The position numbers were made by a program, and so were the translations under genes. Positions 25,952-46,433 of a stretch of 64,000 bases of DNA are shown piece by piece. Below the pieces are notes generated by a model, which worked only from the letters and a program-made list of their open reading frames with translations, was not told the origin of the DNA and did no database searches. This DNA is from a virus: the IMG/VR virus record IMGVR_UViG_2565956771_000001, positions 24 through 64,023 of that record; one strand, given 5' to 3'. Each line of letters starts with the position of its first letter. Positions within the stretch are counted from its first letter, which is position 1.

Positions 25952-26004
25952 TTCAGCTTAAACAATGAACCCGCTCCGGCGGGTTTTTGCATTCTGGAGG
26001 GCGC

Positions 26005-30862: not shown

Positions 30863-30890
30863 ATTTAAGTCATCATAAGGATGCAAGCAC

Positions 30891-31421
30891 ATGGCAAGAC
30901 AAGAGATAAACCTTGGTACGGCCCCTACTGGTGTAGGCGGGGATACCACTCGTACGGCTGGCGTCAAGATCAACGCCATGACAGATGAGATATATAAGAA
31001 CTTCTATCAGAGGTCGAATATTCTCGCTGATGTTGCTGATTTAAACGGCCTTCCGAACGGCGGTATTATCGAGACAAAAACAAACTCAAACGGAACCTAT
31101 ACGAAATTTGCAGACGGCACTCTAATTTGCTTTAACACGTTTATCGTAACTGCGACCGTTAACCCTGGCGCGTCTGTGGTGCCATCTGTAGTTATGCCGT
31201 ACGCTTTTTCAGGCTCGCCTTATATTGCCAATTCTCTGATTTTTTATACGGCGGGGCAGGGCGCGCAGATATACTCATCCAAGCAAAACTATGGTTTGAT
31301 TGGGGTGTTCATAAACACTGGTGTGTCTGCATCTTCATCGTTCCCGAGCTTTACGACACTAGGAACTAATATTTCTTATTCCTATGAATATCGCTATTTG
31401 GCAATAGGGAGGTGGAAATAA
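30891..31421 (+). CDS. Short tail fibre (gp53-like C-terminal domain)
   Basis: MARQEINLGTAPTGVGGDTTR...; TNSNGTYTKFADGTLIC...AIGRWK. Confidence 0.8.
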   Translation: MARQEINLGTAPTGVGGDTTRTAGVKINAMTDEIYKNFYQRSNILADVADLNGLPNGGIIETKTNSNGTYTKFADGTLICFNTFIVTATVNPGASVVPSVVMPYAFSGSPYIANSLIFYTAGQGAQIYSSKQNYGLIGVFINTGVSASSSFPSFTTLGTNISYSYEYRYLAIGRWK

Positions 31422-31711
31422 TGATAATCAAATTATCGCCGCAGCGTCGGGATGATCAGCTGGTCGTCAGTAAGCGGAATGATGTGCTGACAATCAACGG
31501 TGAACGGTTCGACTTCCGAGAACTTCCTGAAGGTGCAGTCTTGCCAGCATCTGCTGTGGCTTGCGAATTCGTCGTCGGCGACGTTATGAGGCTCAACGGA
31601 GATCTGATCATAACCTTGCTCCTTCCGTGCGGACCTGAAGCAAGCAACTCAGCTTGCTTCCCTGCCGATATCGTCGCCCCACCGAACGGTAATGTGAGTC
31701 TTCCCCTATGA
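31421..31711 (+). CDS. Tail fibre assembly-associated protein
   Basis: MIIKLSPQRRDD...LTINGERFDF...GDLIITLLLP. Confidence 0.7.
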   Translation: MIIKLSPQRRDDQLVVSKRNDVLTINGERFDFRELPEGAVLPASAVACEFVVGDVMRLNGDLIITLLLPCGPEASNSACFPADIVAPPNGNVSLPL

Positions 31712-31962
31712 GTAATATCGATTTCAGCAAGATGGTTACCGCCGAGCAACGTCATGCGGATGAAGAGCGTGCCGCCCTTGAGTCCGTTCTGTCATCGCGT
31801 CGCGCTGCCTACCTGTCCGAGTCCGACCCGCTCAGGCTGGAAGCCGACTACGACGCGTTGAGCCGTGGCCTGGAGCCTGACTACACCGCCTGGCTGGCCT
31901 CAGTGGCCGCGATCAAGGCGCGTTTCCCTTTACCGGTGAGCGCTTCCGCCTTAGACGCCTAA
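31708..31962 (+). CDS. Tail fibre assembly-associated protein
   Basis: NIDFSKMVT...RRAAYLSESDPL...IKARFP. Confidence 0.7.
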   Translation: MSNIDFSKMVTAEQRHADEERAALESVLSSRRAAYLSESDPLRLEADYDALSRGLEPDYTAWLASVAAIKARFPLPVSASALDA

Positions 31963-32018
31963 AGCCAGCAGTACACCGCCACCCGCCTTGAGCGGGTTTT
32001 TTATTGCCTGGAGAAAAT

Positions 32019-32444
32019 ATGAACGCATCCGAGAAAGACCGGGACATTCTGACGCGCACGCTCTGGGGTGAGGCCCGCGGCGAAGGACTGGCCGGACAGA
32101 TCGCCGTGGCCTGGACCATCCGCAACCGCGTATTCGATGGAAAGGCCAAGTCCTGGTGGGGGGAGGGTTACGCCGGCGTTTGCCTGAAACCCTGGCAGTT
32201 CAGCTGCTGGAACCAGAACGACCCGAACCACGCGTACCTGAGTGGCGCCAAGCCGATTCCTGCAGCTCAGTTCGCCCAGGCGCAGCGTGCAGCTGACCAG
32301 GTGATGGCGGGCGTGGTGCCGGATCCAACCGGCGGCGCCACGCACTACTACGCAACCACGATGCCCAAGGCCCCGGCCTGGGCGGCGAAGGCCACGCAGA
32401 CGCTGCGCCTTGGTCACCATGTCTTCTTCAAGGATGTGCCGTGA
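32019..32444 (+). CDS. Endolysin, SleB-like cell wall hydrolase
   Basis: RTLWGEARGE...VAWTIRNR...WQFSCWN...DPTGGATHYY...HVFF. Confidence 0.9.
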   Translation: MNASEKDRDILTRTLWGEARGEGLAGQIAVAWTIRNRVFDGKAKSWWGEGYAGVCLKPWQFSCWNQNDPNHAYLSGAKPIPAAQFAQAQRAADQVMAGVVPDPTGGATHYYATTMPKAPAWAAKATQTLRLGHHVFFKDVP

Positions 32445-32971
32445 TGACGCCGATGCAGAAGCTGATCGGCCTGGGGCTGGCAATCCTGCTGGCGCTGGGC
32501 ATCGGCTTTGGCGGGGCATGGCAGGTTCAGGACTGGCGTCTGGGCAAGAAGCTGGCTGAGCGTATTGCGGAGCAGGGCGCCCGCCACCAGACGGAACTGG
32601 ATGCAATCACTGGCGAGGCCTGGCGTCAGCAGGCGGCCGAACAGGATAAGCGCCTGGCCACCGAGCAACAGCTCGCGATCCAGGACCAACACCACACCAA
32701 GGAATTATTCGATGTCCAACGCAACCAGGCTCGCCTGCGTGACCAGCTTGCTACTGCTGATGTCCGGCTGTCAGTCCTCCTCGCCGAGGATCCAGCCAGT
32801 AGCTGCAACGTGCCTACCGCCCCCGGCGCCGTCGGCGTGGTTCATGCAGCCCTTCGAGCCCCACTTGACCCAGCGCATGCGCAACGAATTGTCGCCATCA
32901 CCGACGACGGGGACAACGCCATAATCGCCTTGCGTGCGTGCCAGGCGTACGTCAGGGCTGTGGCTCCTTGA
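32441..32971 (+). CDS. Rz: i-spanin Rz
   Basis: N-terminal TM helix, coiled coil, ALRACQAYVR end. Confidence 0.88.
   Translation: MMTPMQKLIGLGLAILLALGIGFGGAWQVQDWRLGKKLAERIAEQGARHQTELDAITGEAWRQQAAEQDKRLATEQQLAIQDQHHTKELFDVQRNQARLRDQLATADVRLSVLLAEDPASSCNVPTAPGAVGVVHAALRAPLDPAHAQRIVAITDDGDNAIIALRACQAYVRAVAP
32712..32924 (+). CDS. Rz1: o-spanin Rz1 nested in Rz (+1 frame)
   Basis: MSNATRLACVTSLLLLMSGC lipobox followed by a Pro-rich segment. Confidence 0.82.
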   Translation: MSNATRLACVTSLLLLMSGCQSSSPRIQPVAATCLPPPAPSAWFMQPFEPHLTQRMRNELSPSPTTGTTP

Positions 32972-33311
32972 GTGCCCGCAGCTCTTCCAGCAATCGCTGG
33001 TTTTCCCTGAGAAGGTGGTCCCTCTGTTCCGTGATTATCGCCAACCCGTTTAACTTGCGGCCCTGGCGTGAGGTTTCCAGGTTCAGGGCAGCTACTTGGG
33101 ATAGGGCGTCTTTCAAGGAGGTCTCCGCCTGATCCTTTCCTGTCATCAGCAGATCATTCATCTGCACTAGGCCGGCAATATTCGCCCGCGCTCGACGCAG
33201 CATGCGCTCAGTCTCCACCAACTCATCCACGAGGATGGAGCACTGGTGCTGGTACATCTCCAGCTGAGTGGGGCAGCCGAGCCAATCATCGGTGTCCATG
33301 TCTACGTTCAT
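32952..33311 (-). CDS. Coiled-coil hypothetical protein at the prophage right end, SOS box upstream
   Basis: 119 aa ORF (WLGCPTQLEMY...); LexA box 17 bp upstream. Confidence 0.7.
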   Translation of the reverse strand: MNVDMDTDDWLGCPTQLEMYQHQCSILVDELVETERMLRRARANIAGLVQMNDLLMTGKDQAETSLKDALSQVAALNLETSRQGRKLNGLAIITEQRDHLLRENQRLLEELRALKEPQP

Positions 33312-34076: not shown

Positions 34077-36407
34077 ATGAAGGACGTCATTGGCTTTTTT
34101 GCTTACGCGTCAACGCCTGCCGAGATAGGGCAAACCATTGAGAGTGCTGTTGCTACCAGCTCAAGAACCAATACGAAAACGGTTGTGTCTACCTGGAGGG
34201 CCTTGGACATCGTCGGTCACTTCATCTCTGACGAAGTGCTGGCAAGTATTGATGCAGCCGATTTCCTGGTTGCTGACATCAGTGAGCTAAATTTCAACGT
34301 CACGTATGAAATTGGCTACGCCCTTGGTAAATCAAAGCGCGTTCTGCTTGTCAAAAACAAAAGCCTCCAGTCGCAGGGGTTGAAAATTTCCGATGTCGGT
34401 ATTTTTGACACCCTTGGGTTTCAGGAATACCAGAACTCGCCTGAGCTGAGCGGTTTCTTGAACAACGCGTCAGCCTGGAAATCGATTGACGTGTCTGCTG
34501 CGCTCAATCTCAAGGCACCGGTTTATTTGTTGGATACACCGCACAAAACCGACTGGTCGACCCGCATCATCTCGAGAATCAAAAAGGGCGGCTTCATCTT
34601 CCGTAACTTTGATCCAAACGAAACTCCCAGGCTTTCGGCCTATGACGCGATCAATCAGGTCGCACAATCCTATGGAGTTGTGGTTCCGTTGCTATCTACT
34701 GGGGCGACAGGAGCGGCCATCCACAACATGCGAGCCGCCTTCATTGCTGGTTTGGCCGATGGCATGGGCAAGGCGATGTGCATTCTTCAGTCAGGCGATG
34801 AGCCGGTCCCAGTGGATTATCGAGACTTTGTCCAGGTTACCTACCATCCGAATGATGTTAACCGCGCCATTGAGGTGTTTGCGTCCGATGTGACCCAAGC
34901 GTTTCAGCAGCTTGAGGCTTCTGGCGCGAAACCCGAGCGGTCATTTATCAAAAAACTCAACCTCGGCGCGACATCTGCCGAGAACGAAATGCGGGATCTC
35001 GAACGTTATTATCTGGAGACCGATCAGTTTCTGAAATCGTTGCGTGGCGAGGCGCATTTGGTCGTCGGTCGTAAGGGTTCTGGAAAATCAGCCATCTTTC
35101 TTCAAATCAGGGATGCCGAGCGCGACAAAAACCGTAACAAGAATATCGTTTTGGATTTGAAGCCAGACGGCTACAAACTCATCAAATTCAAAGAACGCAT
35201 CCTTCAGTTTCTTTCCGAAGGCACCTACCAGCACACAATCACGGCGTTTTGGGAGTACGTGCTACTGCTGGAAATTTGCTACAAGATTTTGGAAAAAGAC
35301 AAACAGCGTCACATCCATGATCATAGGCTGTATGAAGGCTATCGCGAGCTCGCCGAGCTGTATCGGGGAGAAGATTACGATTCAGAAGGCGATTTTTCTG
35401 AGCGCATGTCGATGCTCATGGAGAAAATCTACTCCGAATACCAATCCAAGTACGGTTCAACCAAAAGCGTCAATCTGAGCTCATTCGAAGTGACCGAACT
35501 CCTGTACAAGCATGACGTAAAGCAACTCAAACAAAAGCTGGGACGTTACCTTGAGAACAAGCAGGTGCTATGGCTTCTCTTCGACAATATTGATAATGGC
35601 TGGCCAACGTCCGGACTGAAGCATGAAGACCTGCTTATGGTCAGAGCTTTGATCGACGCTACGCGAAAAATTGAACGTCAGTTCAGCAGCGACAACATCA
35701 AGGTGCGCTCGGTAGTGTTCCTACGCAACGACGTCTACGAGCTGCTGGTCAAGGAGACGTCTGACCGCGGCAAGGAAGCCAGTGTGGTGCTGGATTGGAC
35801 GGATTCTGACTTGTTACGCGAGCTCGTTCGTTTGCGAATCGTGTCCAACGGTCTTGAAGAAGACCTGGACTTCAAGTCGGCCTGGCTGCGGCTTTTTGTA
35901 AGCCATTACAAGGGCGAGGAAACGTCTCAGTTTCTGATAGAGCGTTCCTTGATGAGACCACGCTTTCTCTTGAATCTGATCAATCATTGCAAGAGCTTTG
36001 CCATCAACCTCAACCACGAGATTATCGAAGGCAGCGACATTGAGAAAGGCATCGCGGCCTATTCAGCGGATCTGCTGCGCGATATTGGCTACGAGCTTCA
36101 GGACGTGTCCGATGAGACTGAAGGCCTTCTCTACGCTTTCGTCGCATCATCCGCCGACCTTTCTGAGCAGCAGGTGATGGATACTCTCCTTAAGTCTGGG
36201 CTTGATCAGCAGAAGGCGAGTCGCGCGGTAGATCTGCTGCTTTGGTATGGATTCCTGGGCATTCGAATCAACTCGGACGATCCTAAGTTTATTTATGATT
36301 TTAGCTACAACAAAGCGCTCATGGACGGGGTTAAGAAGAACTCGAACCAAGCGGTCAGTCTTGTAATTAACCAGGCGTTTTGGCCAGCATTGATGATCAA
36401 CCAATAA
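34077..36407 (+). CDS. P-loop ATPase (Sll1717/FunZ-like) with two N-terminal NDT/TIR-like domains
   Basis: ADFLVADISELNFNVTYEIGYALG (NDT-like); second copy near HNMRAAFIAGLADGMGK; Walker A VVGRKGSGKS; Walker B LLFDNID; C-terminal wHTH-like LLWYGFLG. Confidence 0.82.
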   Translation: MKDVIGFFAYASTPAEIGQTIESAVATSSRTNTKTVVSTWRALDIVGHFISDEVLASIDAADFLVADISELNFNVTYEIGYALGKSKRVLLVKNKSLQSQGLKISDVGIFDTLGFQEYQNSPELSGFLNNASAWKSIDVSAALNLKAPVYLLDTPHKTDWSTRIISRIKKGGFIFRNFDPNETPRLSAYDAINQVAQSYGVVVPLLSTGATGAAIHNMRAAFIAGLADGMGKAMCILQSGDEPVPVDYRDFVQVTYHPNDVNRAIEVFASDVTQAFQQLEASGAKPERSFIKKLNLGATSAENEMRDLERYYLETDQFLKSLRGEAHLVVGRKGSGKSAIFLQIRDAERDKNRNKNIVLDLKPDGYKLIKFKERILQFLSEGTYQHTITAFWEYVLLLEICYKILEKDKQRHIHDHRLYEGYRELAELYRGEDYDSEGDFSERMSMLMEKIYSEYQSKYGSTKSVNLSSFEVTELLYKHDVKQLKQKLGRYLENKQVLWLLFDNIDNGWPTSGLKHEDLLMVRALIDATRKIERQFSSDNIKVRSVVFLRNDVYELLVKETSDRGKEASVVLDWTDSDLLRELVRLRIVSNGLEEDLDFKSAWLRLFVSHYKGEETSQFLIERSLMRPRFLLNLINHCKSFAINLNHEIIEGSDIEKGIAAYSADLLRDIGYELQDVSDETEGLLYAFVASSADLSEQQVMDTLLKSGLDQQKASRAVDLLLWYGFLGIRINSDDPKFIYDFSYNKALMDGVKKNSNQAVSLVINQAFWPALMINQ

Positions 36408-36663
36408 TCTAAAAATCATCCGCCAGATGGTAGGGATAGCCCCGTTGTCTGCCTTAGCCGCCGTTGGCCTGACAGACCTCAAAACAATGCTCTATGTGCG
36501 TCGCACGATTCAGATTTGCCCTTTTGCCGGAGATCGAATTCGTGGTTGCTTCATATCTTTCGAGGGCTCATCAATGAGCCTTGCATGGGCTTAGCTTGTG
36601 CTCGAACAGGATCGATAGACAGCCGCGATTTTGATCAAACATTTTTGCGAGTAAGAGATCGCT

Positions 36664-37920
36664 GTGATGAAGTTATGCTTTGTCGTGATGGGGTATGGCA
36701 AGAAAACCGAGTATGAGTCTGGTCGCACGCTCGACCTGAATGCAACGTACGAAACGATTATCGAGCCCGCTGTCACCAGCCGCGGCTTACGCTGCGTTCG
36801 GGCTGACGAGATCATGCAGTCGGGACTTATCGACGTAAAAATGTACGACCTGCTGCTCAGGGCTGATCTGGTCATCGCCGATATTTCCACGGGAAACGTA
36901 AACGCCGTCTACGAACTGGGAGTACGTCACGCGCTGAGACCGAATTCGACCATCGTCATGAGCGAGGACAAGGGCAAGCTGTACTTTGACCTCAATCACA
37001 TCAGCACTTTCCAGTATTCGCATTTTGGTGAGGACATTCTTGCACGTGAGGCGCGGCGCGCCACGGAGGCCCTGGGTAACCTGATTGAGGCCGTGATGGC
37101 CGCCCAGGCTATCGACAGTCCAGTTTATACGTTCCTGCCCAGGTTGCGCTCGCCGAGTATGTCGGATGAAGAGTTTGAAGAGTTGGTCGATGAAGCAGAA
37201 GCCGCTCAACAACGACTTTTTCATCACATGCGCGAAGGTGAAAAGTTGATGCGGCAGAGTCAACATCATGCTGCCAGCGTAGAGTTTGCTGCTGCAAGGG
37301 ATATGAAGCCTGGTGAGCCTGATATTTTGCAAAAGCTTGCACTGAGCACCTATAAGTCAAAGATTCCTAATGAGCTCGCCGCGCTGCGAGCTGCCATGGA
37401 AGTGCTTAGCCCCCTCAATCCTGAAAGCTCGAATGACCCCGAGACTGTTGGCATTGCGGGAGCGATCGTCAAGCGAATCTGGCTGCTTGAGGGTGATAGA
37501 GCTTCACTTGACTCCGCCATTGCTTTTTATCGCCGAGGCTTTGAGGTCAAGCGTGACTATTACAACGGCGAAAACCTTGCGCTGTGCTTCGAGTTTCGAG
37601 CGCAAATACAAACAGAAGACGCGGAGAGAATGTTCGACTTCATGTGCGCGCAGAAAATCCGTGAAGCGATTTTGAGGATTCTGTTGCCTGTGCTGGAGTC
37701 TCCCGATTTCATTGAACGCAGCGACAGACGCTGGGTGTATGCGACTTTGGCCAACTGCTATTTTGCGGTCGGAGACGCCACGCAAGCCGAGACGTTCGAG
37801 AATCATTTTATGGGAGCCTTCATTGCTCAATGGGAGGTTGATACTTATCAGGCGGGCAAAAGTCACGTGTTAGCAACCCGAGAGAAACGGCTCGCAGCGG
37901 TGGCCCCGTCTCAGCACTGA
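36664..37920 (+). CDS. NDT-like domain plus DUF4071/TRAF-binding-type TPR protein
   Basis: LCFVVMGYG...ADLVIADISTGNVNAVYELGVRHALR; helical repeats DPETVGIAGAIVKR, YYNGENLA. Confidence 0.8.
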   Translation: MMKLCFVVMGYGKKTEYESGRTLDLNATYETIIEPAVTSRGLRCVRADEIMQSGLIDVKMYDLLLRADLVIADISTGNVNAVYELGVRHALRPNSTIVMSEDKGKLYFDLNHISTFQYSHFGEDILAREARRATEALGNLIEAVMAAQAIDSPVYTFLPRLRSPSMSDEEFEELVDEAEAAQQRLFHHMREGEKLMRQSQHHAASVEFAAARDMKPGEPDILQKLALSTYKSKIPNELAALRAAMEVLSPLNPESSNDPETVGIAGAIVKRIWLLEGDRASLDSAIAFYRRGFEVKRDYYNGENLALCFEFRAQIQTEDAERMFDFMCAQKIREAILRILLPVLESPDFIERSDRRWVYATLANCYFAVGDATQAETFENHFMGAFIAQWEVDTYQAGKSHVLATREKRLAAVAPSQH

Positions 37921-37975
37921 CCGTTTGAGGTTATCGACAATGCTCAACCAACGACTTCAAGAAAGGAACAGCGAA

Positions 37976-38455
37976 ATGGGGTTGCCCAGAACATTCGTCG
38001 GCTTCAGCAGCACAGACCGACACATGTATGAACTGATGGGGGCGTGGAAGAAAAACACTCGGATCGATTTTGATTTCGCCGACTGCCAGTTGAACATGGC
38101 GTTGAACTCGGAAGACGAGGATTACATCAAGCGCAAATGCCGGGAAAGGATTGATATGGCCGGCACCTTCGCACTGCTGATTGGCAGGGACACGCGTTCG
38201 AAACACAAATACGTGCGTTGGGAGATACAGGTAGCGATAGAGAAGGGGTGCAAGCTCATCGGCATCAACCTGGACGGAGCCCGCCAGGTGAATGCTGATC
38301 TTTGCCCTCCCATCCTGCAGGACGTTGGGGCAGTGTTCGTCCCGTATTCCCCTGCCATTATTGCTCATGCCCTGGCGAACCCCACGGCAAGTGAGCGTGG
38401 CAACTATTTCTATCCGCCAGCCGTGTATCAAAAACTCGGCTATGAGGTTCCTTGA
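37976..38455 (+). CDS. TIR-domain protein (ThsB/DUF1863-like)
   Basis: RTFVGFSSTD...EDEDYIKRKCRERI...LLIGRDT...YVRWEIQVA (catalytic Glu). Confidence 0.88.
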   Translation: MGLPRTFVGFSSTDRHMYELMGAWKKNTRIDFDFADCQLNMALNSEDEDYIKRKCRERIDMAGTFALLIGRDTRSKHKYVRWEIQVAIEKGCKLIGINLDGARQVNADLCPPILQDVGAVFVPYSPAIIAHALANPTASERGNYFYPPAVYQKLGYEVP

Positions 38456-39318
38456 TGCAGATTTCTGATTTCCCTGGTCTCTATCAGGCCGCCGATGAGC
38501 TGTCGGGTTCCGCTCAGAAGCATTTTCTTGCCGCGCTGCTCACTAACCTGGCGCTGTTGGTGGTGGCCGCAGTCGTCTCGGTTATCAATTATCCTCACTG
38601 GGGTGCAGCGGCCCTGCAGGCGGCTCTTTTAGCCGGCGCATTAGCCAGCTCTGTGTATTTGGCGACACAGCGGCCTGAGCGGCTTTGGTATTCGGGGCGT
38701 GCCGTCGCCGAATCAATCAAAACCATGGTGTGGCGCTACGTGTCCCGCGCAGAGCCTTTTCATGAAAGCGACGAGGCGGCCAAGAAGCATTTGCTGGCAA
38801 AGCTTACGCAAGTGGTTGAGCAAAACCCAGGCGTGTCGAACAAGCTGCTCACGCATCTGCCGGCCCAGCAAATTACGTACAAGATGAAGCTGATGAGGGC
38901 CGGTGATTTCGAAACCCGGCGCGATACGTACATCGAATCCCGGATCAACGACCAACTGGGATGGTATTCACGTAAAGCTAACTTCAACGCCCAGGCCGCC
39001 AAGTATTTCTTCATTACATTGATCGCCGTTAACGCCATCGCTTTTGGATGTGCGCTGATCAAGATCGCCAACGTGGAATACCAATACTTTCCGACTGACG
39101 TGCTGATCGCTGTTGCAGCAAGTATTCTGACGTGGATGCAGGCAAAACGCTTCACTGAGCTATCGGCGTCTTACGCACTGACTGCGCATGAGATTACGCT
39201 TATACGTGAACAGGCCGATGAGCTGAAAAAAGATGAGCATTTGTCGACATTTGTAGGTGACGCTGAGAACGCATTTTCTCGTGAGCACACTCAGTGGGAG
39301 GCAAGGAAGGACAACTGA
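38455..39318 (+). CDS. SLATT/DUF4231 membrane effector (two 2-TM modules)
   Basis: Four hydrophobic segments; WYSGRAVAESIK; RINDQLGWY; ENAFSREHTQW; start overlaps the TIR stop. Confidence 0.87.
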   Translation: MQISDFPGLYQAADELSGSAQKHFLAALLTNLALLVVAAVVSVINYPHWGAAALQAALLAGALASSVYLATQRPERLWYSGRAVAESIKTMVWRYVSRAEPFHESDEAAKKHLLAKLTQVVEQNPGVSNKLLTHLPAQQITYKMKLMRAGDFETRRDTYIESRINDQLGWYSRKANFNAQAAKYFFITLIAVNAIAFGCALIKIANVEYQYFPTDVLIAVAASILTWMQAKRFTELSASYALTAHEITLIREQADELKKDEHLSTFVGDAENAFSREHTQWEARKDN

Positions 39319-39395
39319 CAGCGCCTCGCGTGCGAACGACTACTGGCAGGAGTAGGGCGCTAGTTTCAGAAGCTAAACACCTTCCTGCCGGCAGC

Positions 39396-39866
39396 TTATT
39401 TAAGCTCGTCGGAGAGCTTCGACCAGGGTACGGTTTTGATCTTGTGTTCCGATACCCATTTAGGCTCAGCTGCGCCGAACTGCTTACCGGAATGCACAGC
39501 TACAACCTTCTTGCCAAGCTCTAGGCTCTTTTCTACCTCCCATTTCACCCACTTGCTCTGGGCAGTGTCCTTGGAAATGAAGACCACAGTGATAGATGAG
39601 CGGTTGATGCGCTCGGCGATCTTGCGCTTGATGTACTCCGCCTGCTCACTGTCGTAGGGTTCGCGGACTGAATGATCATTGAACTCGATGTCATTGTTAT
39701 CGTTTTTTGCCTGTCCCCTGAGCAGATTGACCTCAGCCATGTCCTCAGTGGCAAAACTGATGAACACGTTGCGCTTGCCCTCATTTAGAGCAGCCTTGGC
39801 TTTTTGCTCCAGTGACCTGACATCACCGAGTCGGCTCCATCCACCTGTGCTGCTACCGCCCATCAT
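39396..39866 (-). CDS. TIR-domain protein (ThsB-like) with a Gly-rich N-terminal tail
   Basis: (M)MGGSSTGGWS...; NVFISFATED...AEYIKRKIAERINRSSITVVFIS...WVKWEVEKS; GAGGG RBS inside the end of the queC-like gene. Confidence 0.88.
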   Translation of the reverse strand: MMGGSSTGGWSRLGDVRSLEQKAKAALNEGKRNVFISFATEDMAEVNLLRGQAKNDNNDIEFNDHSVREPYDSEQAEYIKRKIAERINRSSITVVFISKDTAQSKWVKWEVEKSLELGKKVVAVHSGKQFGAAEPKWVSEHKIKTVPWSKLSDELK

Positions 39867-40455
39867 TGGCACCCTCAAATTTGAATTCGTTGCAGGCGAT
39901 ACAGTTGCCGCACGGCTGTTCTTCACCCAGGTGGCACGAGTAGGTCTGAGAGATGCCTTTCTCGGCTGCCAGCGTCACGACGTCAGGTTTGGTGAACGAT
40001 GAGAGCGGTGCAAGCACCTTGATATTCCGGCCCATGCATAGAGTTATCATGCGCTCAGCCTCCTCGAGGAATCCGGAGGTCTGATCAGGAAAAAGGCTGG
40101 TGCTTTCGTGAAGCAATCCGATGGAGATCGCATCGGCGTTTTTCTGATGGGCGTAAGCGGCGGCGGTCAACAGAAAAAGCATGTTCCGGCCGGGAGTGAA
40201 GGCGTCGTCAATGATGTGCAAGGTCGGGTCGGTGAGTCCCGAGCGAATCAACCTGCCAAATCCCGACAGACCGGCAATTTCGGGCTCAGGAAGTCCAAGC
40301 TTCTGCATGGCCAGCTTGCAGGCTGCGAGCTCTCGGTCGCGGGCGCGTTGACCATAATCTACAAAGAGTGGAAATATCTGCAGGCCTTGCTCCTGTGCCA
40401 ACTTGGCGACGAGCGTAGAGTCTAGGCCTCCGGAAACCAGTGTCACGATACTCAT
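39853..40455 (-). CDS. QueC-like PP-loop ATPase (7-cyano-7-deazaguanine synthase family; Cap9/QatC-like)
   Basis: SGGLDS, FVDYGQR, PGRNMLFL, zinc site SCHLGEEQPCGNCIAC. Confidence 0.92.
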   Translation of the reverse strand: MSIVTLVSGGLDSTLVAKLAQEQGLQIFPLFVDYGQRARDRELAACKLAMQKLGLPEPEIAGLSGFGRLIRSGLTDPTLHIIDDAFTPGRNMLFLLTAAAYAHQKNADAISIGLLHESTSLFPDQTSGFLEEAERMITLCMGRNIKVLAPLSSFTKPDVVTLAAEKGISQTYSCHLGEEQPCGNCIACNEFKFEGANDGR

Positions 40456-41150
40456 ACTAAAACAGCCTCCTGCTTGCGATTTGCAACGCGCATAACGATC
40501 CATATGGCCCAATCCAAAAGACCAACCGGGCAATCCATTTCCCGGGCATGGTCACGAAGCCTGTCTTCATGCCTGCCATACTGATTCAATCCGGATATGG
40601 ATACCTGAGTGCCTGAATATATCCCCTGAGCAGACATGTAATTGAGCACGTGCCGATCAAGGATTGCCAAGTCATAAGTAACCCCGCAATTGCGCAAAAA
40701 CATACTGGCTTGCTTGGGCCCCATACCGGATGCATGGGCCACTAGCCACGCGCGTACATCACTGACGTCACCACTGATCAGCGCCTTGAGTGAGCCGCCA
40801 ATGCTTGCTACGGCCGCCCACGTGGACGCTAAGTGACCGGCTTTTGCCCTGGGAAACCTGTAAGTGCGCATTTTGCCGTCGACAACGAGAGGGGTTCTGA
40901 GCACTTCAAACAATTTCTCGGCAAGGTGCTCGCTGTGTTGTTTGTTGTGATAAAGATAGCCACGTTCATCGATGGCATCGGCGGCTGCCATAGCGAGCGG
41001 GTAGGGGACCTGGCTACTGAGAATGCAGCAAGAAAGCTCCCACCATAGATGACGCTCGTCAGACACTGCGCCGGCTTCGATGCGTGTGCGAATATCTGGA
41101 CAGACCGCAGCGACAGCTCTGCAGAGCGCTTCAGCGCTATAAGTGGTCAT
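40452..41150 (-). CDS. OGG-like N-glycosylase/AP lyase (HhH; Cap11-like)
   Basis: ELSCCILSSQ, YRFPRAKA, GMGPKQASMFLRN, AILDRHVL, DWAIW. Confidence 0.85.
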   Translation of the reverse strand: MTTYSAEALCRAVAAVCPDIRTRIEAGAVSDERHLWWELSCCILSSQVPYPLAMAAADAIDERGYLYHNKQHSEHLAEKLFEVLRTPLVVDGKMRTYRFPRAKAGHLASTWAAVASIGGSLKALISGDVSDVRAWLVAHASGMGPKQASMFLRNCGVTYDLAILDRHVLNYMSAQGIYSGTQVSISGLNQYGRHEDRLRDHAREMDCPVGLLDWAIWIVMRVANRKQEAVLV

Positions 41151-42529
41151 AGAAAAATTCCTGGGAATAGCGATCGAAGCTCGGCGCTTTTCATGCCGGT
41201 AACTCCCATGGCGAACGGTTCTTCGCGGCCTTTCGAATACATGTCACGCATGATTCGGCCAAACTCCGCATAATACTCTAGATTGTGGAACGCAACCTTG
41301 CCTGCGTAGCCTATGTTGTTGTTTGCCATCACCCTATCCATAAATTCACTTCGGATCCTTTTCGTTTTGAAAAAGTCGAAGTGTTGGAAGTGGTGAAGCC
41401 GCTCAAGCTCAGGATCTACCGCAAACCGACACCACTCAAGACCGTCGAACGTGTCCGCGCCAGCGGCCGCCAGTAGTGCAATGCTCCACGGGTTTCCAGT
41501 GCCCAGTAGATGAATGGGTTGATAATAGGGCAGCTTGTCCAGTTCATCCCTGATATGTCTGACAGTCAATGCACGCTGCGCAAGGCCCGCACCCAGTTCC
41601 CTTTCCGGAATGGCGATGATAGGCGGTTGCAGGTGCTCGGATATCGCCCTGACGATCCGAGGAAGTCTTTCGAGCCCCTTAGGGGTCTGCTTGACGTGAA
41701 TGATGGGTAGCACCGGAGCAGAGGTGTGCTTGGCGTCGCGCTCCACTGCTTTTATGACCTGCCTGACCGCCACTTCGAATTTGTCACTGGGGGTCATGTT
41801 GTCAAAACAGAACGCCCAATCGTGTGGCGTATCGGTTAGCGCGCGCTTCAGGTTCGATGGCTTCCACTGTTTGTCATTCAGGCGGTAAGCCTCATAATTG
41901 CCCGAGTCGATGAGAACAAAACCGCCTAGGTCTCGATAGGTCGTTATTTCAGCAATCATCTTGTGTCGCGATTCAGAATTAACCAGGTCATAGGCAGAAA
42001 CAAGAATCGAGCGCGTCGGATACACCGTTAATGCTTCCAACGCTTCTACGGGATCGAACTGTGTCTCGTGTGACGAAACAGACATGAAGACATTAGGAAG
42101 GGCAAGCGCACCGTCAGCTATCGTGGCTAACCGGACGGGCTTACCCTGAGGAGGTACAACGAGCCCGATTTTCTTCTGCAGCAACTGAAAGCATGAGTGA
42201 TCTGCTTCGCCCTGCCATGACCGGAAATCAACACTGCTGAAGTGACCATATGGGTACGGCGGATCACTGTCATCCAAAATGAGAGGGACGACCTTCTTTT
42301 GATATTTTTCTGCCAAGCTCAACTCGCCAGTGATGGTGTGCTTGTGAGCAAATGAGGAATATAGAGCAACGACGCATTTCGCTTCTTTGAGATTTTCTGT
42401 AATCGCGACACTGAAGTCGCCAACTATCAAATCGTCTAGCCACACGCTCCAGGACGCGGAGAGGAGATCGCGAACCTTCAGCGCTGTCTTGCTATTTTCT
42501 TTGGCATATATGATATAGACGTCCGCCAT
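41147..42529 (-). CDS. TIR domain fused to a tRNA-guanine transglycosylase (TGT)-like barrel (Cap10-like)
   Basis: N-terminal DVYIIYA...VWLD...VVALYS...GEL; TGT motifs LIDSGNYE, FCFD, PIIH, IHLLGTG, ADTFDG. Confidence 0.82.
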   Translation of the reverse strand: MADVYIIYAKENSKTALKVRDLLSASWSVWLDDLIVGDFSVAITENLKEAKCVVALYSSFAHKHTITGELSLAEKYQKKVVPLILDDSDPPYPYGHFSSVDFRSWQGEADHSCFQLLQKKIGLVVPPQGKPVRLATIADGALALPNVFMSVSSHETQFDPVEALEALTVYPTRSILVSAYDLVNSESRHKMIAEITTYRDLGGFVLIDSGNYEAYRLNDKQWKPSNLKRALTDTPHDWAFCFDNMTPSDKFEVAVRQVIKAVERDAKHTSAPVLPIIHVKQTPKGLERLPRIVRAISEHLQPPIIAIPERELGAGLAQRALTVRHIRDELDKLPYYQPIHLLGTGNPWSIALLAAAGADTFDGLEWCRFAVDPELERLHHFQHFDFFKTKRIRSEFMDRVMANNNIGYAGKVAFHNLEYYAEFGRIMRDMYSKGREEPFAMGVTGMKSAELRSLFPGIFL

Positions 42530-42602
42530 GGATCGATCTGGCCTCAGCTGGTTACATTCCGTTGCATGACCCTGCGGGCGATGCCGATTATTGTTTTATC
42601 TT

Positions 42603-43757
42603 TCAGTGAGTGGCAGCGGCTTCGCCAGCAGCCCAGACTGCGAGGTACATTGCTGTCGTGAAGTCATCCGTTGTCTCTGTTGCAACGGTTAATACACTCG
42701 CGGCAGTAGTGCGCTCGTGGAGTGTGATGATCGGAATTGATCGGGCTCGGTCTTCTGCAATTCGTGCCAGGGACTCCACCGACAACTCATCATTTATTAC
42801 CAAGGTCGCATCCGTATTCCAGCCAGCGTTTGCCACTTCAATCTGTGGACATGTCACATCAACACCCAGTTCGCGCAATGCAAACCGGGCTTCTTCCATC
42901 GTGTATCGCTGTCCTAGTGAATCAACACCACCTTCAAGACGAACCCTGCCACCTCTCCAAGATGAGATAGGCTGACGTTGCTTGAGGATGGATTCATCAA
43001 ACTCGAACGCACGGGTATCGCAATAGACAGATACCGACCGTGACGCCAGATCTGCAGCTTGGTGAGGCGGCAGTTCGCCTTGCGCCCAATGAACCGCAAA
43101 TACGGCAGTAAATATGTCACCTGTTCCGATTTTAAAAACACTGCTGGAACGATAAGCCGGTATGTGTGAAATCTTGCCTACACCCTCGTAAACTGAGGCG
43201 CCACGTGCACCTTGTTTGATCACGACAACCTGTGCGCGTTGTTTTTTCAGCAGGTGTTGCGCCGCTAAGTGCAACTCATCGATTCCAGTTATCTGGCGCA
43301 CTTCCAGTTCATTCATTACTAGGGCCAATTCTCTGGCCGTCGACCCATTGGCTCCAAACGATGGCGGGTTATGCCAGGTTTGCGGGTCGTATACGGCCCG
43401 ATTCGCCGTGACCACCGCATCTCCCTCAAGAAAGCCGAAGCGCAAAACGGCGTTCCCAGTCACCGATATCGAGTTTTCGCGGTTGATGGACGCGCGGGGT
43501 GGCTCAATATGGGGCGAAGAAAGGGGGTGGAAATACGCAAAGACTATTGGCGATGGCCTGGTAGCGGCATGCGTGATGATTCCCTGCGACTCCAGCGAAA
43601 CCAATGCGGAGCGATCAGCGGGGGAGGCATAAGTGGAAAACTCGACACCCGAAGCCAGTGCGTTGGCGGCCAAGGCAGCGCGACCTCCAGAGCCCAGCGT
43701 AGAGTCCCAGAACGGTACATCACATAACTCGCGATATAGACCACCAACGATGTGCAT
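42603..43757 (-). CDS. PfkB/ribokinase-family kinase with a C-terminal degenerate NDT-like domain
   Basis: MHIVGG...LGSGGRAA; VVIKQGARG; FKIGTGDIFTA; tail LGQRYTMEEARFALRELGVDVTCP. Confidence 0.82.
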   Translation of the reverse strand: MHIVGGLYRELCDVPFWDSTLGSGGRAALAANALASGVEFSTYASPADRSALVSLESQGIITHAATRPSPIVFAYFHPLSSPHIEPPRASINRENSISVTGNAVLRFGFLEGDAVVTANRAVYDPQTWHNPPSFGANGSTARELALVMNELEVRQITGIDELHLAAQHLLKKQRAQVVVIKQGARGASVYEGVGKISHIPAYRSSSVFKIGTGDIFTAVFAVHWAQGELPPHQAADLASRSVSVYCDTRAFEFDESILKQRQPISSWRGGRVRLEGGVDSLGQRYTMEEARFALRELGVDVTCPQIEVANAGWNTDATLVINDELSVESLARIAEDRARSIPIITLHERTTAASVLTVATETTDDFTTAMYLAVWAAGEAAATH

Positions 43758-44155: not shown

Positions 44156-45886
44156 TTAAGCTTTTTCGAGCTTAAGAAAGGGATTATCGGTAGGTACGGC
44201 CGCAGCTTTGAACAATAGTGCTGGTTCTTCTAGCAAATAGCCTTTGAGTTTTGCCTTCTTACGGGGACCTTCGACCTGACAAGCCCAGATATTTAGACCG
44301 TCGTCACGCTTCCTGTGGACCTTCAATTTTTCGAATTGCTTCTGCACCCAACGCCATTCTTCAGTCTCTTGATTGGCACCCTGAGAGATACCAGGGAACT
44401 CCTGCGCATAGCGTTGGAAGAGACCAGGCGTGACCAGAAATACGCTGCCACTCACCGTGTGGATTTTGGCCTTGCTGTCATTGATGACCAGTTTGTGGCT
44501 CAGGATGCTTTCCTTGACCCAATTCAAGAATGCCTGGCCAGGGTTATTCGAAGGAGGATTTGAGATTTCGAGAGCGTTTGCTGACGGTGCATCACGTGCC
44601 TCGGGTTCTGCCATTTCGAACATATCCAGCAACGCTCCTAAGTAGTCGGCATCTTCCGTGGCTACGGGATCTGGCTGTGATGGGCTTTGATCTGATCCTC
44701 TACTGACAACCTTGGGTGCTAGTGGCGATGCCGGAGCGTCAGTTGAGTGGTCATCGACTGCGAAGCTTACCGTTCCGCTGAAAGCTTCAGGTCGGTCTTC
44801 GTTCGCCCAAATCAACGCCGGTTGAAGGCGCAGAAAGGTAAAGCTCTGCTGCCAGTTTCCCTGCGTGACAAGCGCAGTCCAGATGGCTTTGCCTTCCGGC
44901 GTGGACTCAACCAATCCATGCGATTGCAGTTCGTCGAACACAGCAATGTTGGACGACGGAATGCCTTCTATCGCTTGTGAAAGCAAATAAGCTCGGAGTT
45001 TGTCCGTGACTGCCTTACTAACCAACCACAGGGAGTCCTGGGTCAGCCATCCCGCGGCCCCTGGCTGGTTGAGTTTCAGCTCGTGCTGAACGAGATGACG
45101 CAGTCCGCTGATCAAGTGATGTTGCAGCGTATGAATCGGCGCTTGCAACGCCTTGCTTGGGTTGCCACCGATGTTCTGTGCGGTGGAGACCCGGTCGGCT
45201 TGAATCACCAACTCGCCCAGCACGCCGGCGCGTTCATACTGGCCGGCTAGGACATACAGCAGACTCGCCCACAGCGGCGGAAAGCCACTCAGCCAATCGA
45301 GGATCGGTCGGTTGAGAATCTGGGTGTAGAGCAAGCCTGCGGCGGCGCCGTGCAGGTGATAATCGCGACCTTTGAGGTAGCGAAAGCGGTAGGGCTGATC
45401 CAGGGGACCCTGCCAAGGATGCCAAACACGGCCATCCTGGCGTTCGACTAGCAGGTCCACGGCGATCTTGCCGATGTCATGCAGAAGGGCACCATAAGCA
45501 ATACCCGCCGACCAGGCATCGGTCTGGGCGGCTTGGTCTTCGGGCGCAGCGCCGGTTGGCAGCAGATACGACTGACGCAGTTTCAAACTGCAAGCGACCA
45601 GTTCCAGTCCATGGTCGAGCATGCCGCCAAGGTAAGCATGGTGGTGCGTCTCGCTGGCAGGCAGTTGCTGGACCTGTTCGGCGTAGCGATGGATCGGATT
45701 TATATAGAGCTGGGTGAACTGCGCGTGGGAGAGGGCGGTGTACTGCCAGATGCGGTCGAGCAACTGGCGGCGGTGTTCCGCGGCTAACAAACTGTGAGCC
45801 GACTCGATGGGCAGGTAACCTTCGGCGACGTTGACGGTCGGTGGCGGAGGGGGCTTCTGCCTTTTGCGGCGAAACAGGCTGAGCAT
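44156..45886 (-). CDS. traI: MobH-family relaxase (TraI_2)
   Basis: LPASETHHHAYLGGMLDHGLE and LLHDIGK (HD domain); VWHPWQGPL. Confidence 0.93.
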   Translation of the reverse strand: MLSLFRRKRQKPPPPPTVNVAEGYLPIESAHSLLAAEHRRQLLDRIWQYTALSHAQFTQLYINPIHRYAEQVQQLPASETHHHAYLGGMLDHGLELVACSLKLRQSYLLPTGAAPEDQAAQTDAWSAGIAYGALLHDIGKIAVDLLVERQDGRVWHPWQGPLDQPYRFRYLKGRDYHLHGAAAGLLYTQILNRPILDWLSGFPPLWASLLYVLAGQYERAGVLGELVIQADRVSTAQNIGGNPSKALQAPIHTLQHHLISGLRHLVQHELKLNQPGAAGWLTQDSLWLVSKAVTDKLRAYLLSQAIEGIPSSNIAVFDELQSHGLVESTPEGKAIWTALVTQGNWQQSFTFLRLQPALIWANEDRPEAFSGTVSFAVDDHSTDAPASPLAPKVVSRGSDQSPSQPDPVATEDADYLGALLDMFEMAEPEARDAPSANALEISNPPSNNPGQAFLNWVKESILSHKLVINDSKAKIHTVSGSVFLVTPGLFQRYAQEFPGISQGANQETEEWRWVQKQFEKLKVHRKRDDGLNIWACQVEGPRKKAKLKGYLLEEPALLFKAAAVPTDNPFLKLEKA

Positions 45887-46108
45887 CGTGATCTCCGGGA
45901 AGTGGCTGGGTCATTGGCCTTTTAGCCTTTTCGGATAGCGCTCTTACCCTTGAGTGCCCATTCCCTTCCAACCCTTACCCGTCCTTTTGGCTCGTGTCCC
46001 TTTGTGAGGCAATCGGAATATGGATACTGCTAGGCATCATTTTTTTGGGGGCTAGTACGGAAAAGAAAAGAGTCGGTACACTGCGGTGCCTATTTTTTGG
46101 GTCTTGCC

Positions 46109-46303
46109 ATGAACCTTACTGACGCCACGCTCGTGCTGCTGCTCGCGGCACGTATCCATGGGACCGACGAAGCCGTCAGGGCCTCGGCGAAGAGCGTGGT
46201 CAAGAAGTTACCGCGCAGTAAACGCGATCTGATCTACAAGGTGATCGACAGCCGGAGTCCGCTCGAGCTGGTGGATTTTCTGGCGCAGAACCTGGATACA
46301 TAA
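46109..46303 (+). CDS. Small conserved Pseudomonas hypothetical protein
   Basis: MNLTDATLVLLLAARIHGTDEAVRASAKSVVKKLPRSKRDLI. Confidence 0.65.
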   Translation: MNLTDATLVLLLAARIHGTDEAVRASAKSVVKKLPRSKRDLIYKVIDSRSPLELVDFLAQNLDT

Positions 46304-46433
46304 CGGCATGCTGCGGGTGTGCGCCCCTCTCTTTTTCTTTGCGTGAGGGGCCCGCCGTCTGTTTTCTGGAAACAGAAAAAAGGGCTCAACTCGCGTTGGG
46401 CCCTGTGAAGCGTTTGCAGCGGTGAGGTAACGA

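What the first reader, a model, noticed from the sequence alone, without database searches (positions are those of the whole stretch)
34077..43757. Two convergent operons packing about seven TIR/NDT-fold domains: possibly one composite system sharing the SLATT effector
Seen: the + strand set ends in SLATT and the - strand set ends in the Gly-tailed TIR, with stop codons 77 bp apart and no obvious terminator between. TIR or nucleoside-deoxyribosyltransferase-like domains occur in the ATPase (two), the TPR protein, both small TIRs, TIR-TGT and PfkB-NDT. The - operon has no evident effector; the only membrane effector is the SLATT gene. Inference: several sensor/signal enzymes feed one SLATT pore, as multiple ThsB genes feed one ThsA in Thoeris.
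Basis: inference. Interest (0 to 1): 0.72.

Follow-up and report, generated by a model that had tools for sequence, protein, structure and literature searches.

The report
Thoeris island with deazaguanylation add-on
Two facing operons on a Pseudomonas mobile element most likely form one anti-phage TIR signalling (Thoeris) system: a second TIR enzyme, controlled by QueC/TGT/OGG-like "deazaguanylation" genes, shares the membrane and nucleotidase-like killing proteins of an ordinary Thoeris cassette. This layout was noted, untested, in a 2025 preprint.

Summary
Nine genes form two convergent operons whose stop codons lie 77 nt apart, with no terminator-like site between.

The + set is an NDT-like/Sll1717 ATPase followed by ThsI-like (NDT-like + TPR-S), ThsB and a SLATT protein. 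That is a hybrid of type VII and type VIII Thoeris.

The - set is PfkB/NDT-like, TIR-fused Cap10 (TGT-like), Cap11 (OGG-like), Cap9 (QueC-like) and a ThsB that starts MGGSSTGG. This is the type IV CBASS deazaguanylation module serving a TIR instead of a CD-NTase.

The co-occurrence test is asymmetric:
- The - module almost never stands alone. In 46 of 53 fully flanked loci from many phyla a SLATT and/or ThsI gene lies within 6 kb. Four of the five remaining loci I checked carry TPR-S or divergent SLATT proteins. Some loci are single co-directional operons.
- The ThsB-SLATT/ThsI cassette usually occurs without the - module (26 of 32 metagenome loci).
- The ATPase is separable and mostly solitary.

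So the "composite system" reading is partly supported. The - operon is a dependent add-on arm, there are two effectors rather than one, and most of the "signal enzymes" are regulators.

The kind is known from Yirmiya et al. 2025 (bioRxiv, Fig. 5I, 6G), and this scan met it before on other DNA. Apparently undescribed: the strict link of PfkB/NDT-like to TIR-fused Cap10, and the restriction to SLATT/TPR-S effectors.

The parts
34077..36407 (+). NDT-like N-domain(s) fused to an Sll1717-family P-loop ATPase (776 aa). Separable neighbour, possibly an optional extra effector.
   Evidence: NCBIfam NF047389 2.1e-95. N-domain 1 is homologous to the ThsI N-domain (hhalign 87.6%). More than 1795 homologues. 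Solitary in 6 of 10 contexts and beside Thoeris VII/VIII parts in 4. A 256-nt gap separates it from the next gene.
36664..37920 (+). ThsI-like effector: NDT-like ('CMP hydrolase'-type) N-domain plus TPR-S sensor domain (418 aa).
   Evidence: Pfam TPR-S 1.8e-20 and PADLOC TIR-effector model 7.6e-8 on residues 25-123. The domain make-up equals ThsI of type VIII Thoeris as described in bioRxiv 10.64898/2025.12.03.692087.
37976..38455 (+). ThsB TIR protein of the + cassette (about 159 aa; the ORF opens at 37925). No Gly-rich tail.
   Evidence: Pfam ThsB_TIR 2.6e-14; PADLOC ThsB1 2.2e-40. PDB 8v6t 5.7e-20 with the catalytic-position Glu aligned. The stop overlaps the SLATT start.
38452..39318 (+). 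SLATT membrane effector (ThsH-like), SLATT_3 + SLATT_1 (288 aa).
   Evidence: Pfam 1.4e-43 and 1.2e-36; NCBIfam SLATT_3/SLATT_1. ThsB-SLATT pairs are type VII Thoeris.
39319..39395 (.). 77-nt gap between the convergent stop codons, with no terminator-like site.
   Evidence: Homologous convergent loci have gaps of 72-198 nt.
39396..39863 (-). ThsB TIR protein with N-terminal MGGSSTGG tail (155 aa): predicted substrate of deazaguanylation.
   Evidence: Pfam ThsB_TIR 3e-25. Glu of 'WVKWE' aligns with the BcThsB 'WVRYE' Glu (6lhy). The MGG[GS][GS] start is conserved in essentially all loci. ATG at 39863 read on the sequence.
39853..40455 (-). Cap9-like QueC-family ligase (200 aa from the ATG at 40455).
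   Evidence: Pfam QueC 1.7e-39; PADLOC QueC 1.6e-29. PDB Cap9 9nto_B 8e-14. SGGLDS and the Cys cluster are conserved in 60 homologues. ATGA overlap with the upstream stop and an AGGAGG RBS.
40452..41150 (-). Cap11-like OGG/HhH glycosylase homologue (232 aa).
   Evidence: Pfam Ogg-HhH 2.4e-24; NCBIfam N-glycosylase/DNA lyase 7.9e-29.
41147..42529 (-). TIR domain fused to a Cap10-like TGT barrel (460 aa).
   Evidence: Pfam TIR_2 2.9e-11 and TGT 5e-6; PADLOC TGT 1.6e-22. Best PDB hit is Cap10 9ntn_A, 2.7e-9. Cap10 D73/H226/D248 correspond to D208/H340/D362, all invariant. TIR E69 is invariant and aligns with the ThsB catalytic Glu.
42603..43757 (-). PfkB (ribokinase-fold) kinase fused to a small NDT-like alpha/beta domain (384 aa): conserved first gene of the TIR-fused subtype.
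   Evidence: Pfam PfkB 3e-12. Model pLDDT 93, ribokinase fold. Invariant NxxE and GxGD motifs. C-domain fold nearest to NDTs. Present in 54 of 62 TIR-fused loci and 0 of 17 unfused (p = 1e-11).

Best explanation
The stretch is one functionally linked Thoeris-type anti-phage island with two input arms and two shared effectors, carried as cargo between a prophage and ICE transfer genes.

Arm 1 is an ordinary type VII/VIII hybrid cassette of ThsI, ThsB and SLATT. Its ThsB senses infection and makes an NAD-derived signal. By analogy with published type VII/VIII systems the signal is canonical cADPR. It activates the SLATT membrane protein (ThsH-like) and the NDT-TPR-S protein (ThsI-like).

Arm 2 is the facing operon. 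The Cap9-like QueC enzyme is predicted to ligate 7-carboxy-7-deazaguanine, using ATP, to the free amine of Gly2 of the MGGSSTGG-tailed ThsB. The TGT-like barrel of TIR-Cap10 is predicted to hold the modified tail and keep this ThsB poised until infection. The OGG-like Cap11 is predicted to counteract the modification. This arm has no effector of its own, so once released its ThsB signals to the same SLATT/ThsI effectors.

The PfkB/NDT-like protein and the TIR fused to Cap10 are conserved extras of this subtype with unknown roles. The NDT/Sll1717 ATPase is a separable neighbour.

Shown here: gene content, motifs, catalytic residues, and conserved linkage across genomes. Inferred: the modification itself, the identity of the signal, and the sharing of effectors.
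For: 1. Identity of the parts: Pfam, PADLOC, NCBIfam and PDB matches.
2. The Cap10 residues that are essential in type IV CBASS (D73, H226, D248; paper read) are invariant here as D208, H340 and D362.
3. The ThsB next to QueC starts MGG[GS][GS] in essentially all 78 loci. This matches the M(G/S)G(G/S)GG acceptor motif of type IV CBASS CD-NTases.
4. Tight translational coupling in the - operon: ATGA overlaps and an 11-nt overlap.
5. Dependence of arm 2 on effectors:
   - 46 of 53 loci with at least 4 kb on both flanks have SLATT and/or ThsI within 6 kb, in variable position and orientation.
   - Of five loci without a tblastn hit that I examined, four carry TPR-S fusion proteins or a divergent SLATT.
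   - Single-strand operons join both halves: L132, L134, L157, L163, L179, L185.
   - L006 has effectors but no second ThsB.
   - Most loci have no second ThsB at all.
6. In 400 Pseudomonas genomes, 3 of 3 TIR-TGT genomes have ThsI adjacent, against 4 of the other 397 (p = 3e-6).
7. Effector and Cap9 distances co-vary as strongly as genes within the operon do (Mantel r 0.66-0.81 against a control of 0.68-0.78).
8. Literature: type VII (SLATT) and type VIII (ThsI) both respond to cADPR; rare operons hold both; Thoeris operons with cap9, cap10 and cap11 exist, with AF3-predicted ThsB-Cap9/Cap10 contacts (bioRxiv 10.64898/2025.12.03.692087).
Against: - No experiment exists on this or any Cap9-11 Thoeris locus. 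The modification, the signal molecule and the effector sharing are all inferred.
- In this window the + cassette has its own ThsB and is complete by published criteria, and close relatives of it work as stand-alone pairs (26 of 32 flanked loci lack the - module). Adjacency here could therefore partly reflect co-transfer of two systems.
- Correlated divergence can arise from shared descent of a mobile block without any functional coupling.
- A few loci showed no effector with my queries (L046 and L056 among those examined; L044 was not checked by Pfam).
- The PfkB/NDT-like protein could be an unrecognised effector of the - operon.
Confidence: 0.6

Rival explanations
1. Two independent defence systems that merely travel together in a defence island. 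The + cassette is a complete type VII/VIII Thoeris. The - operon is self-contained, with the PfkB/NDT-like protein (or the TIR of Cap10 acting as an NADase) as its own effector.
For: The + cassette stands alone in most relatives. PfkB/NDT-like is conserved as the first gene in 54 of 62 TIR-fused loci and keeps its kinase motifs. Its C-domain has the same fold class as the ThsI effector domain. The TIR on Cap10 keeps the catalytic Glu. Defence genes cluster for reasons other than function.
Against: The - module is next to SLATT/TPR-S effectors in nearly every locus across phyla, including loci with no second ThsB and loci where both halves form one operon. PfkB is missing from all 17 unfused-Cap10 loci and from 8 fused ones, yet those loci still carry SLATT or ThsI. 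The NDT-like tail lacks the catalytic Glu motif of NDTs.
Confidence: 0.2
2. The - operon is a brake or tuner rather than a second input. The tailed ThsB and TIR-Cap10 form TIR-TIR heteromers that sequester or consume the signal (or the other ThsB), and so limit autoimmunity from the SLATT/ThsI effectors.
For: In type IV CBASS, loss of Cap9 or Cap11 raised toxicity and Cap10 holds the cyclase in an inactive conformation. A second TIR is fused to or adjacent to Cap10 in about 73 of 78 loci.
Against: In most loci the tailed ThsB is the only stand-alone ThsB next to the effectors, so something in the module must generate the signal. In CBASS, Cap9 and Cap10 are required for defence, not only for restraint. 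Both TIRs keep the catalytic Glu.
Confidence: 0.1
3. The NDT/Sll1717 ATPase is a third signal-responsive effector of the same system rather than an unrelated neighbour.
For: Its N-domain is homologous to the ThsI effector domain. It lies beside Thoeris VII/VIII parts in 4 of 10 contexts, including a three-gene ATPase-SLATT / ThsB island in Enterobacter roggenkampii. In Pseudomonas, 2 of 4 ATPase genomes have it next to ThsI (p = 0.0016).
Against: It is absent from 78 of 80 Cap loci and from all 80 SLATT metagenome loci. It is solitary in Yersinia, Aeromonas, Vibrio, Alcaligenes and two Pseudomonas genomes. A 256-nt gap separates it from thsI here.
Confidence: 0.15

Closest known systems
[quoted passage not shown] 6G and S10B; genome analysis and AF3 only)
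   Same: A TIR signalling protein and an effector sit together with QueC-like, TGT-like and OGG-like genes. The TIR is predicted to dock on Cap9 and Cap10 as the CD-NTase does in type IV CBASS.
   Different: The preprint text gives two sentences. It does not mention PfkB (0 occurrences) and, in the passages I read, says nothing of a TIR fused to Cap10. Here the module faces a complete ThsI-ThsB-SLATT cassette, so the locus has two ThsBs and two effectors. My census adds the restriction to SLATT/TPR-S effectors and the PfkB-to-fused-TIR link.
Type IV CBASS (Cap9/Cap10/Cap11 with a CD-NTase; Wassarman et al. 2025, bioRxiv 10.1101/2025.04.06.647259)
   Same: Same three ancillary families, the same Cap10 catalytic and recognition residues, and the same Gly-rich N-terminal acceptor motif on the signal-making enzyme.
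   Different: There is no CD-NTase; the signal enzyme is a TIR. Cap10 carries an extra TIR domain. A PfkB/NDT-like gene is added. The effectors are Thoeris-type (SLATT without SAVED, and NDT-TPR-S).
Type VII (ThsB + SLATT ThsH) and type VIII (ThsB + ThsI) Thoeris, and the rare operons holding both effectors (same preprint, Fig. 5)
   Same: The + cassette has exactly these parts in one operon: ThsI, ThsB, SLATT. Stand-alone relatives have the same order (L106).
   Different: Here the cassette is joined to a second, Cap-controlled ThsB arm. The signal (cADPR) has not been measured for this locus.
Type I Thoeris with several ThsB genes feeding one ThsA
   Same: More than one TIR input protein for a shared effector set.
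   Different: The effectors here are SLATT and NDT-TPR-S, not SIR2-SLOG. One input is controlled by a protein-nucleobase conjugation module, which type I lacks.
QatABCD (QueC-family QatC modifies the QatB N-terminus; PMC13279940)
   Same: A QueC-family ligase acts on a Gly N-terminus within a defence system.
   Different: QatABCD has no TGT, OGG or TIR gene, and its partners (ATPase, TatD nuclease) are different.

Membership tests
Thoeris with Cap9/Cap10/Cap11 (Yirmiya 2025, Fig. 6G) | A TIR (ThsB-type) protein encoded with QueC-like, TGT-like and OGG-like genes | tested here: met
   Pfam, PADLOC and PDB matches for all four genes, which are translationally coupled.
Thoeris with Cap9/Cap10/Cap11 (Yirmiya 2025, Fig. 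6G) | An associated Thoeris effector | tested here: met
   SLATT lies 77 nt away (convergent) and ThsI 1.5 kb away. The association holds in 46 of 53 flanked loci.
Type IV CBASS-type deazaguanylation module | Gly-rich N-terminal acceptor M(G/S)G(G/S)GG on the signal enzyme | tested here: met
   MGGSSTGG in the window. The MGG[GS][GS] start is conserved across the loci; the motif comes from the paper read.
Type IV CBASS-type deazaguanylation module | Cap10 nucleobase-binding Asp and catalytic His/Asp pair (D73, H226, D248) | tested here: met
   Aligned to D208, H340 and D362, which are invariant in 17 homologues.
Type IV CBASS-type deazaguanylation module | Cap9 with the QueC ATP-binding loop SGGxDS and a Zn Cys cluster | tested here: met
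   SGGLDS and CH..C..C..C are conserved in 60 homologues. PDB Cap9 match 8e-14.
Type IV CBASS-type deazaguanylation module | An actual NDG (+176 Da) adduct on Gly2 | not testable with these tools
   Needs mass spectrometry.
Type IV CBASS | A CD-NTase as the signal enzyme | tested here: not met
   None of the nine genes matches a CD-NTase family. Not a CBASS.
Type VII Thoeris | A ThsB TIR gene paired with a SLATT effector (ThsH) | tested here: met
   ThsB 37976-38455 overlaps the start of SLATT 38452-39318. Many stand-alone relatives of this pair exist.
Type VII / VIII Thoeris | Canonical cADPR as the signal | not testable with these tools
   Needs LC-MS of infected lysates. Inferred only from the effector types.
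Type VIII Thoeris | A ThsI effector: nucleotide-hydrolase (NDT/CMP-hydrolase-like) domain plus TPR domain | tested here: met
   TPR-S 1.8e-20. The N-domain has the NDT-like YELG motif and matches the PADLOC TIR-effector model at 7.6e-8. I had no ThsI reference sequence to compare with directly.
TIR NADase/cyclase | Catalytic Glu in the TIR domain | tested here: met
   ThsB(-) 'WVKWE' aligns with 6lhy 'WVRYE'. ThsB(+) 'VRWE' aligns with 8v6t 'AHE'. TIR-Cap10 E69 is invariant and aligns with that Glu, but the profile alignment has low probability.
Nucleoside 2-deoxyribosyltransferase fold (PfkB C-terminal domain) | NDT-like flavodoxin fold with the catalytic Glu | tested here: inconclusive
   The best fold matches are NDTs (TM up to 0.71) but CheY-like folds score nearly as well. 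No Pfam PF05014 match in 32 homologues. No Glu at the NDT catalytic position.

The most novel reading that the evidence does not exclude
In the TIR-fused subtype, deazaguanylation may be only the first step. The PfkB/NDT-like protein and the TIR on Cap10 are all enzymes of N-glycosidic bonds or ribose phosphates. They might build a sugar or (ADP-)ribose phosphate onto N9 of the protein-bound 7-deazaguanine. That would create a protein-linked nucleotide that gates the tailed ThsB. The island would then be a two-input, one-signal, two-effector immune circuit with a new kind of protein-nucleotide switch.
Probability: 0.12. Interest if true: 0.8.

Novelty: new member of a known kind. Interest (0 to 1): 0.45.

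Why it matters
Protein deazaguanylation was discovered only in 2025, and its downstream step is still unknown. Thoeris loci that carry the same module give it a second, independent context.

This locus is a convenient natural test bed. It holds an unregulated ThsB and a Cap-regulated ThsB side by side with the same two effectors. A deletion series can therefore ask directly what the modification adds: threshold, phage range or control of autoimmunity.

The census here yields three testable rules:
- The module is always tied to SLATT or TPR-S effectors, which predicts a cADPR-type signal.
- A second TIR nearly always sits on or beside Cap10.
- PfkB/NDT-like genes occur only with the fused form.

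Tried and rejected
- No RNA holder was listed for the junction, so nothing can be said on read-through or expression.
- phmmer against PDB found nothing for the Cap10 TIR domain or for ThsI.
- The protein atlas gave no usable hit for the PfkB C-domain.
- hhalign did not link the PfkB C-domain or ATPase domain 2 to the ThsI N-domain.
- I considered equating this QueC clade with 'Cluster 4' of the QueC-family preprint PMC13082051, which has a PfkB-NDT neighbour in 89% of cases and is read there as purine salvage. The Cys signature differs (CH x6 C xx C xx C here against CH x5 CxxCxGCxK there) and no supplement is held, so this stays unresolved.
- I rejected 'type IV CBASS' (no CD-NTase) and 'queuosine or DNA deazaguanine modification operon' (Gly-tailed TIR, Cap10-type barrel, defence-island context).
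- ARAGORN found no intact tRNA at 32.5-34.2 kb.

Full report
WHAT IS THERE

The window is a 64-kb piece of an 82.7-kb IMG/VR record. Phage tail and lysis genes end near 33.3 kb. ICE genes (TraI_2 relaxase, ArdC, TraG) begin at 44.2 kb. The stretch between them has a lower G+C (0.50-0.54 against about 0.60) and holds nine genes in two convergent operons.

Plus strand:
- An NDT-like/Sll1717 P-loop ATPase, 34077-36407 (NCBIfam 2.1e-95).
- After a 256-nt gap, a protein with an NDT-like N-domain and a TPR-S domain, 36664-37920 (TPR-S 1.8e-20).
- A ThsB TIR, 37976-38455 (PADLOC ThsB1 2.2e-40).
- A SLATT_3+SLATT_1 protein, 38452-39318.

Minus strand:
- A PfkB kinase with a small C-terminal alpha/beta domain, 42603-43757.
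- A TIR_2 domain fused to a TGT barrel, 41147-42529.
- An OGG/HhH glycosylase homologue, 40452-41150.
- A QueC homologue, 39853-40455.
- A ThsB TIR, 39396-39863.

The last four minus-strand genes overlap by 4, 4 and 11 nt. I read the starts on the sequence. The second ThsB begins MGGSSTGG. The two stop codons are 77 nt apart and no terminator-like site lies between them.

THE DOMAIN COUNT

Five TIR/NDT-like domains are solid by profile searches: two ThsB, the TIR of TIR-TGT, the N-domain of the TPR-S protein and ATPase N-domain 1. The last two are homologous to each other (hhalign 87.6%, E 3.5e-6).

The PfkB C-domain has no sequence match; 0 of 32 homologues hit PF05014. Its model (pLDDT 87) is nearest to nucleoside 2-deoxyribosyltransferases (7o62 TM 0.71), but generic flavodoxin folds are close behind. 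It also lacks the NDT catalytic Glu motif.

The second ATPase domain is supported only by a language-model lead.

WHAT THE PARTS ARE

The minus operon is the type IV CBASS ancillary triad serving a TIR.
- The TGT barrel's best solved relative is Cap10 (9ntn, 2.7e-9). The three Cap10 residues shown to be essential (D73, H226, D248) align to invariant D208, H340 and D362.
- The QueC homologue matches Cap9 (9nto, 8e-14) and keeps SGGLDS and the Cys cluster.
- The ThsB beside it carries the acceptor motif. In the loci fetched, its orthologue starts MGG[GS][GS] essentially without exception. Type IV CBASS cyclases start M(G/S)G(G/S)GG and are modified on Gly2.

The plus cassette matches the published type VII (ThsB + SLATT ThsH) and type VIII (ThsB + ThsI, a nucleotide-hydrolase domain plus TPR) Thoeris. 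Both respond to canonical cADPR and are occasionally combined in one operon (bioRxiv 10.64898/2025.12.03.692087). The same preprint notes, in two sentences and one figure panel, Thoeris operons with cap9, cap10 and cap11.

THE CO-OCCURRENCE TEST: FORWARD DIRECTION

A profile of TIR-TGT relatives (more than 876 proteins) retrieved 80 loci from species genomes of many phyla. I mapped all nine window proteins on them.
- The order (PfkB)-(TIR-)TGT-OGG-QueC-GlyThsB is constant.
- Of 53 loci with at least 4 kb on both flanks, 46 carry a SLATT and/or ThsI homologue within 6 kb. The position varies: directly downstream on the same strand, upstream, divergent, or convergent as here.
- Of seven well-flanked loci without a tblastn hit, I checked neighbours of five by Pfam. 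Three have other TPR-S fusion proteins (one with a trypsin-like peptidase) and one has a divergent SLATT.
- Most loci have no second ThsB. In L006 the facing set holds only ThsI and SLATT.
- In 400 Pseudomonas species genomes the TIR-TGT gene occurs in 3, always next to ThsI, while ThsI occurs in 7 (Fisher p = 3e-6).

THE CO-OCCURRENCE TEST: REVERSE DIRECTION

I examined 80 metagenome loci with SLATT relatives.
- The seven closest (at least 69% identity) all show the same convergent pairing with the Cap module.
- At 48-59% identity most are plain ThsB-SLATT pairs. Of 32 loci with at least 2.5 kb on both flanks, 26 lack the module.
- Several loci join both halves on one strand: L132 is PfkB, TIR-TGT, OGG, QueC, GlyThsB, ThsB, SLATT. 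L134, L163 and L185 are the same without the second ThsB. L157 and L179 run ThsB, SLATT, TGT, OGG, QueC, GlyThsB.
- Stand-alone ThsI-ThsB-SLATT cassettes also exist in Pseudomonas (L105, L106).
- Pairwise distances of Cap9 and of the neighbouring effector co-vary about as well as those of two genes inside the Cap operon. Shared descent alone could produce this.

READING

Dependence runs one way. The Cap9/10/11 + Gly-ThsB module behaves as an add-on arm that needs SLATT or TPR-S effectors. The effector cassette is self-sufficient.

- There are two effectors, not one.
- The TPR-S protein is an effector rather than a sensor enzyme.
- TIR-TGT, QueC and OGG are a conjugation and regulation module.
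- The ATPase is separable. It is absent from 78 of 80 Cap loci and from all 80 SLATT loci. It is solitary in six contexts. It is nevertheless enriched next to Thoeris VII/VIII parts in four, including an ATPase-SLATT/ThsB island in Enterobacter.

LIKELY MECHANISM (INFERRED)

After Met removal, Cap9 ligates 7-carboxy-7-deazaguanine to Gly2 of the tailed ThsB. The Cap10 barrel binds the modified tail and holds the enzyme until infection. Cap11 antagonises. The released ThsB, like the cassette's own ThsB, then makes a cADPR-type signal that triggers SLATT and ThsI.

I base the cADPR inference on the fact that every effector class found next to the module is SLATT or TPR-S.

FEATURES NOT DISCUSSED IN THE LITERATURE I COULD READ

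- A second TIR with an invariant catalytic-position Glu is fused to Cap10 (62 loci) or encoded right beside it or elsewhere in the operon (11 of 16 unfused loci).
- The PfkB/NDT-like gene, with intact NxxE and GxGD kinase motifs, occurs in 54 of 62 fused loci and in none of 17 unfused loci (p = 1e-11).
- Earlier notes of this scan report the same kind of operon on other DNA, and report a PfkB-NDT fusion beside a QueC-like gene in a different cassette. I did not test those notes.

VERDICT

This is a real, conserved system and a well-equipped member of a recently described but untested kind. The composite reading is probably right in the one-way sense described above.

Noticed in passing
window 34077-36407; L112 6001-9653; L107; L007: The NDT-like/Sll1717 ATPase is a very widespread, highly conserved single gene (more than 1795 homologues, at least 62% identical across Enterobacter, Yersinia, Vibrio, Aeromonas and Shewanella). 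It usually sits alone in mobile islands. In Enterobacter roggenkampii it forms a compact ATPase-SLATT operon with a convergent ThsB. It may be an undescribed stand-alone defence gene or an optional Thoeris effector.
   Followed up: partly
L043 13498-16125 and L044 (Ruegeria); L011 6312-7673; L021 14381-16414: Some Cap9/10/11-ThsB loci carry other TPR-S fusion proteins instead of ThsI or SLATT. One example is TPR-S + trypsin-like peptidase preceded by an alpha/beta hydrolase. This suggests further TPR-S-gated effector types.
   Followed up: partly
L059 (Candidatus Micrarchaeota MAG), L061 (Clostridiales), L063 (Syntrophomonadaceae): TIR-fused Cap10 modules with a ThsI-like gene directly downstream occur outside Pseudomonadota, including an archaeal MAG. 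These lack the PfkB gene.
   Followed up: no
L065-L081 (Acidobacteriota, Nitrospirota, Latescibacterota, Planctomycetota and other MAGs): A distinct subtype runs SLATT-(small TIR)-TGT-OGG-QueC-GlyThsB on one strand, with Cap10 not fused to a TIR and no PfkB. The tailed ThsB there starts MGGGGGGGRGLT.
   Followed up: partly
L009 8762-9908: The PfkB homologue matches in two adjacent tblastn pieces that meet at about 9175. This may be a frameshift or a sequencing error in that MAG.
   Followed up: no
window 25987-33311 and 44156-50239: The island lies between lambda-like phage tail-tip (GpJ) and Rz lysis genes on one side and ICE genes (TraI_2 relaxase, ArdC anti-restriction, TraG) on the other. 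ARAGORN finds no intact tRNA at 32.5-34.2 kb.
   Followed up: partly
window 36408-36663: A 256-nt gap lies between the ATPase and thsI, with promoter-like hexamers at 36380-36408. This fits a separate transcription unit for the ThsI-ThsB-SLATT cassette.
   Followed up: no
PMC13082051, 'Cluster 4': A QueC-family preprint files a proteobacterial QueC clade with PfkB-NDT neighbours under purine salvage. If that clade is this one or its relative, the defence context was missed. The motifs differ slightly, so the link is unproven.
   Followed up: partly
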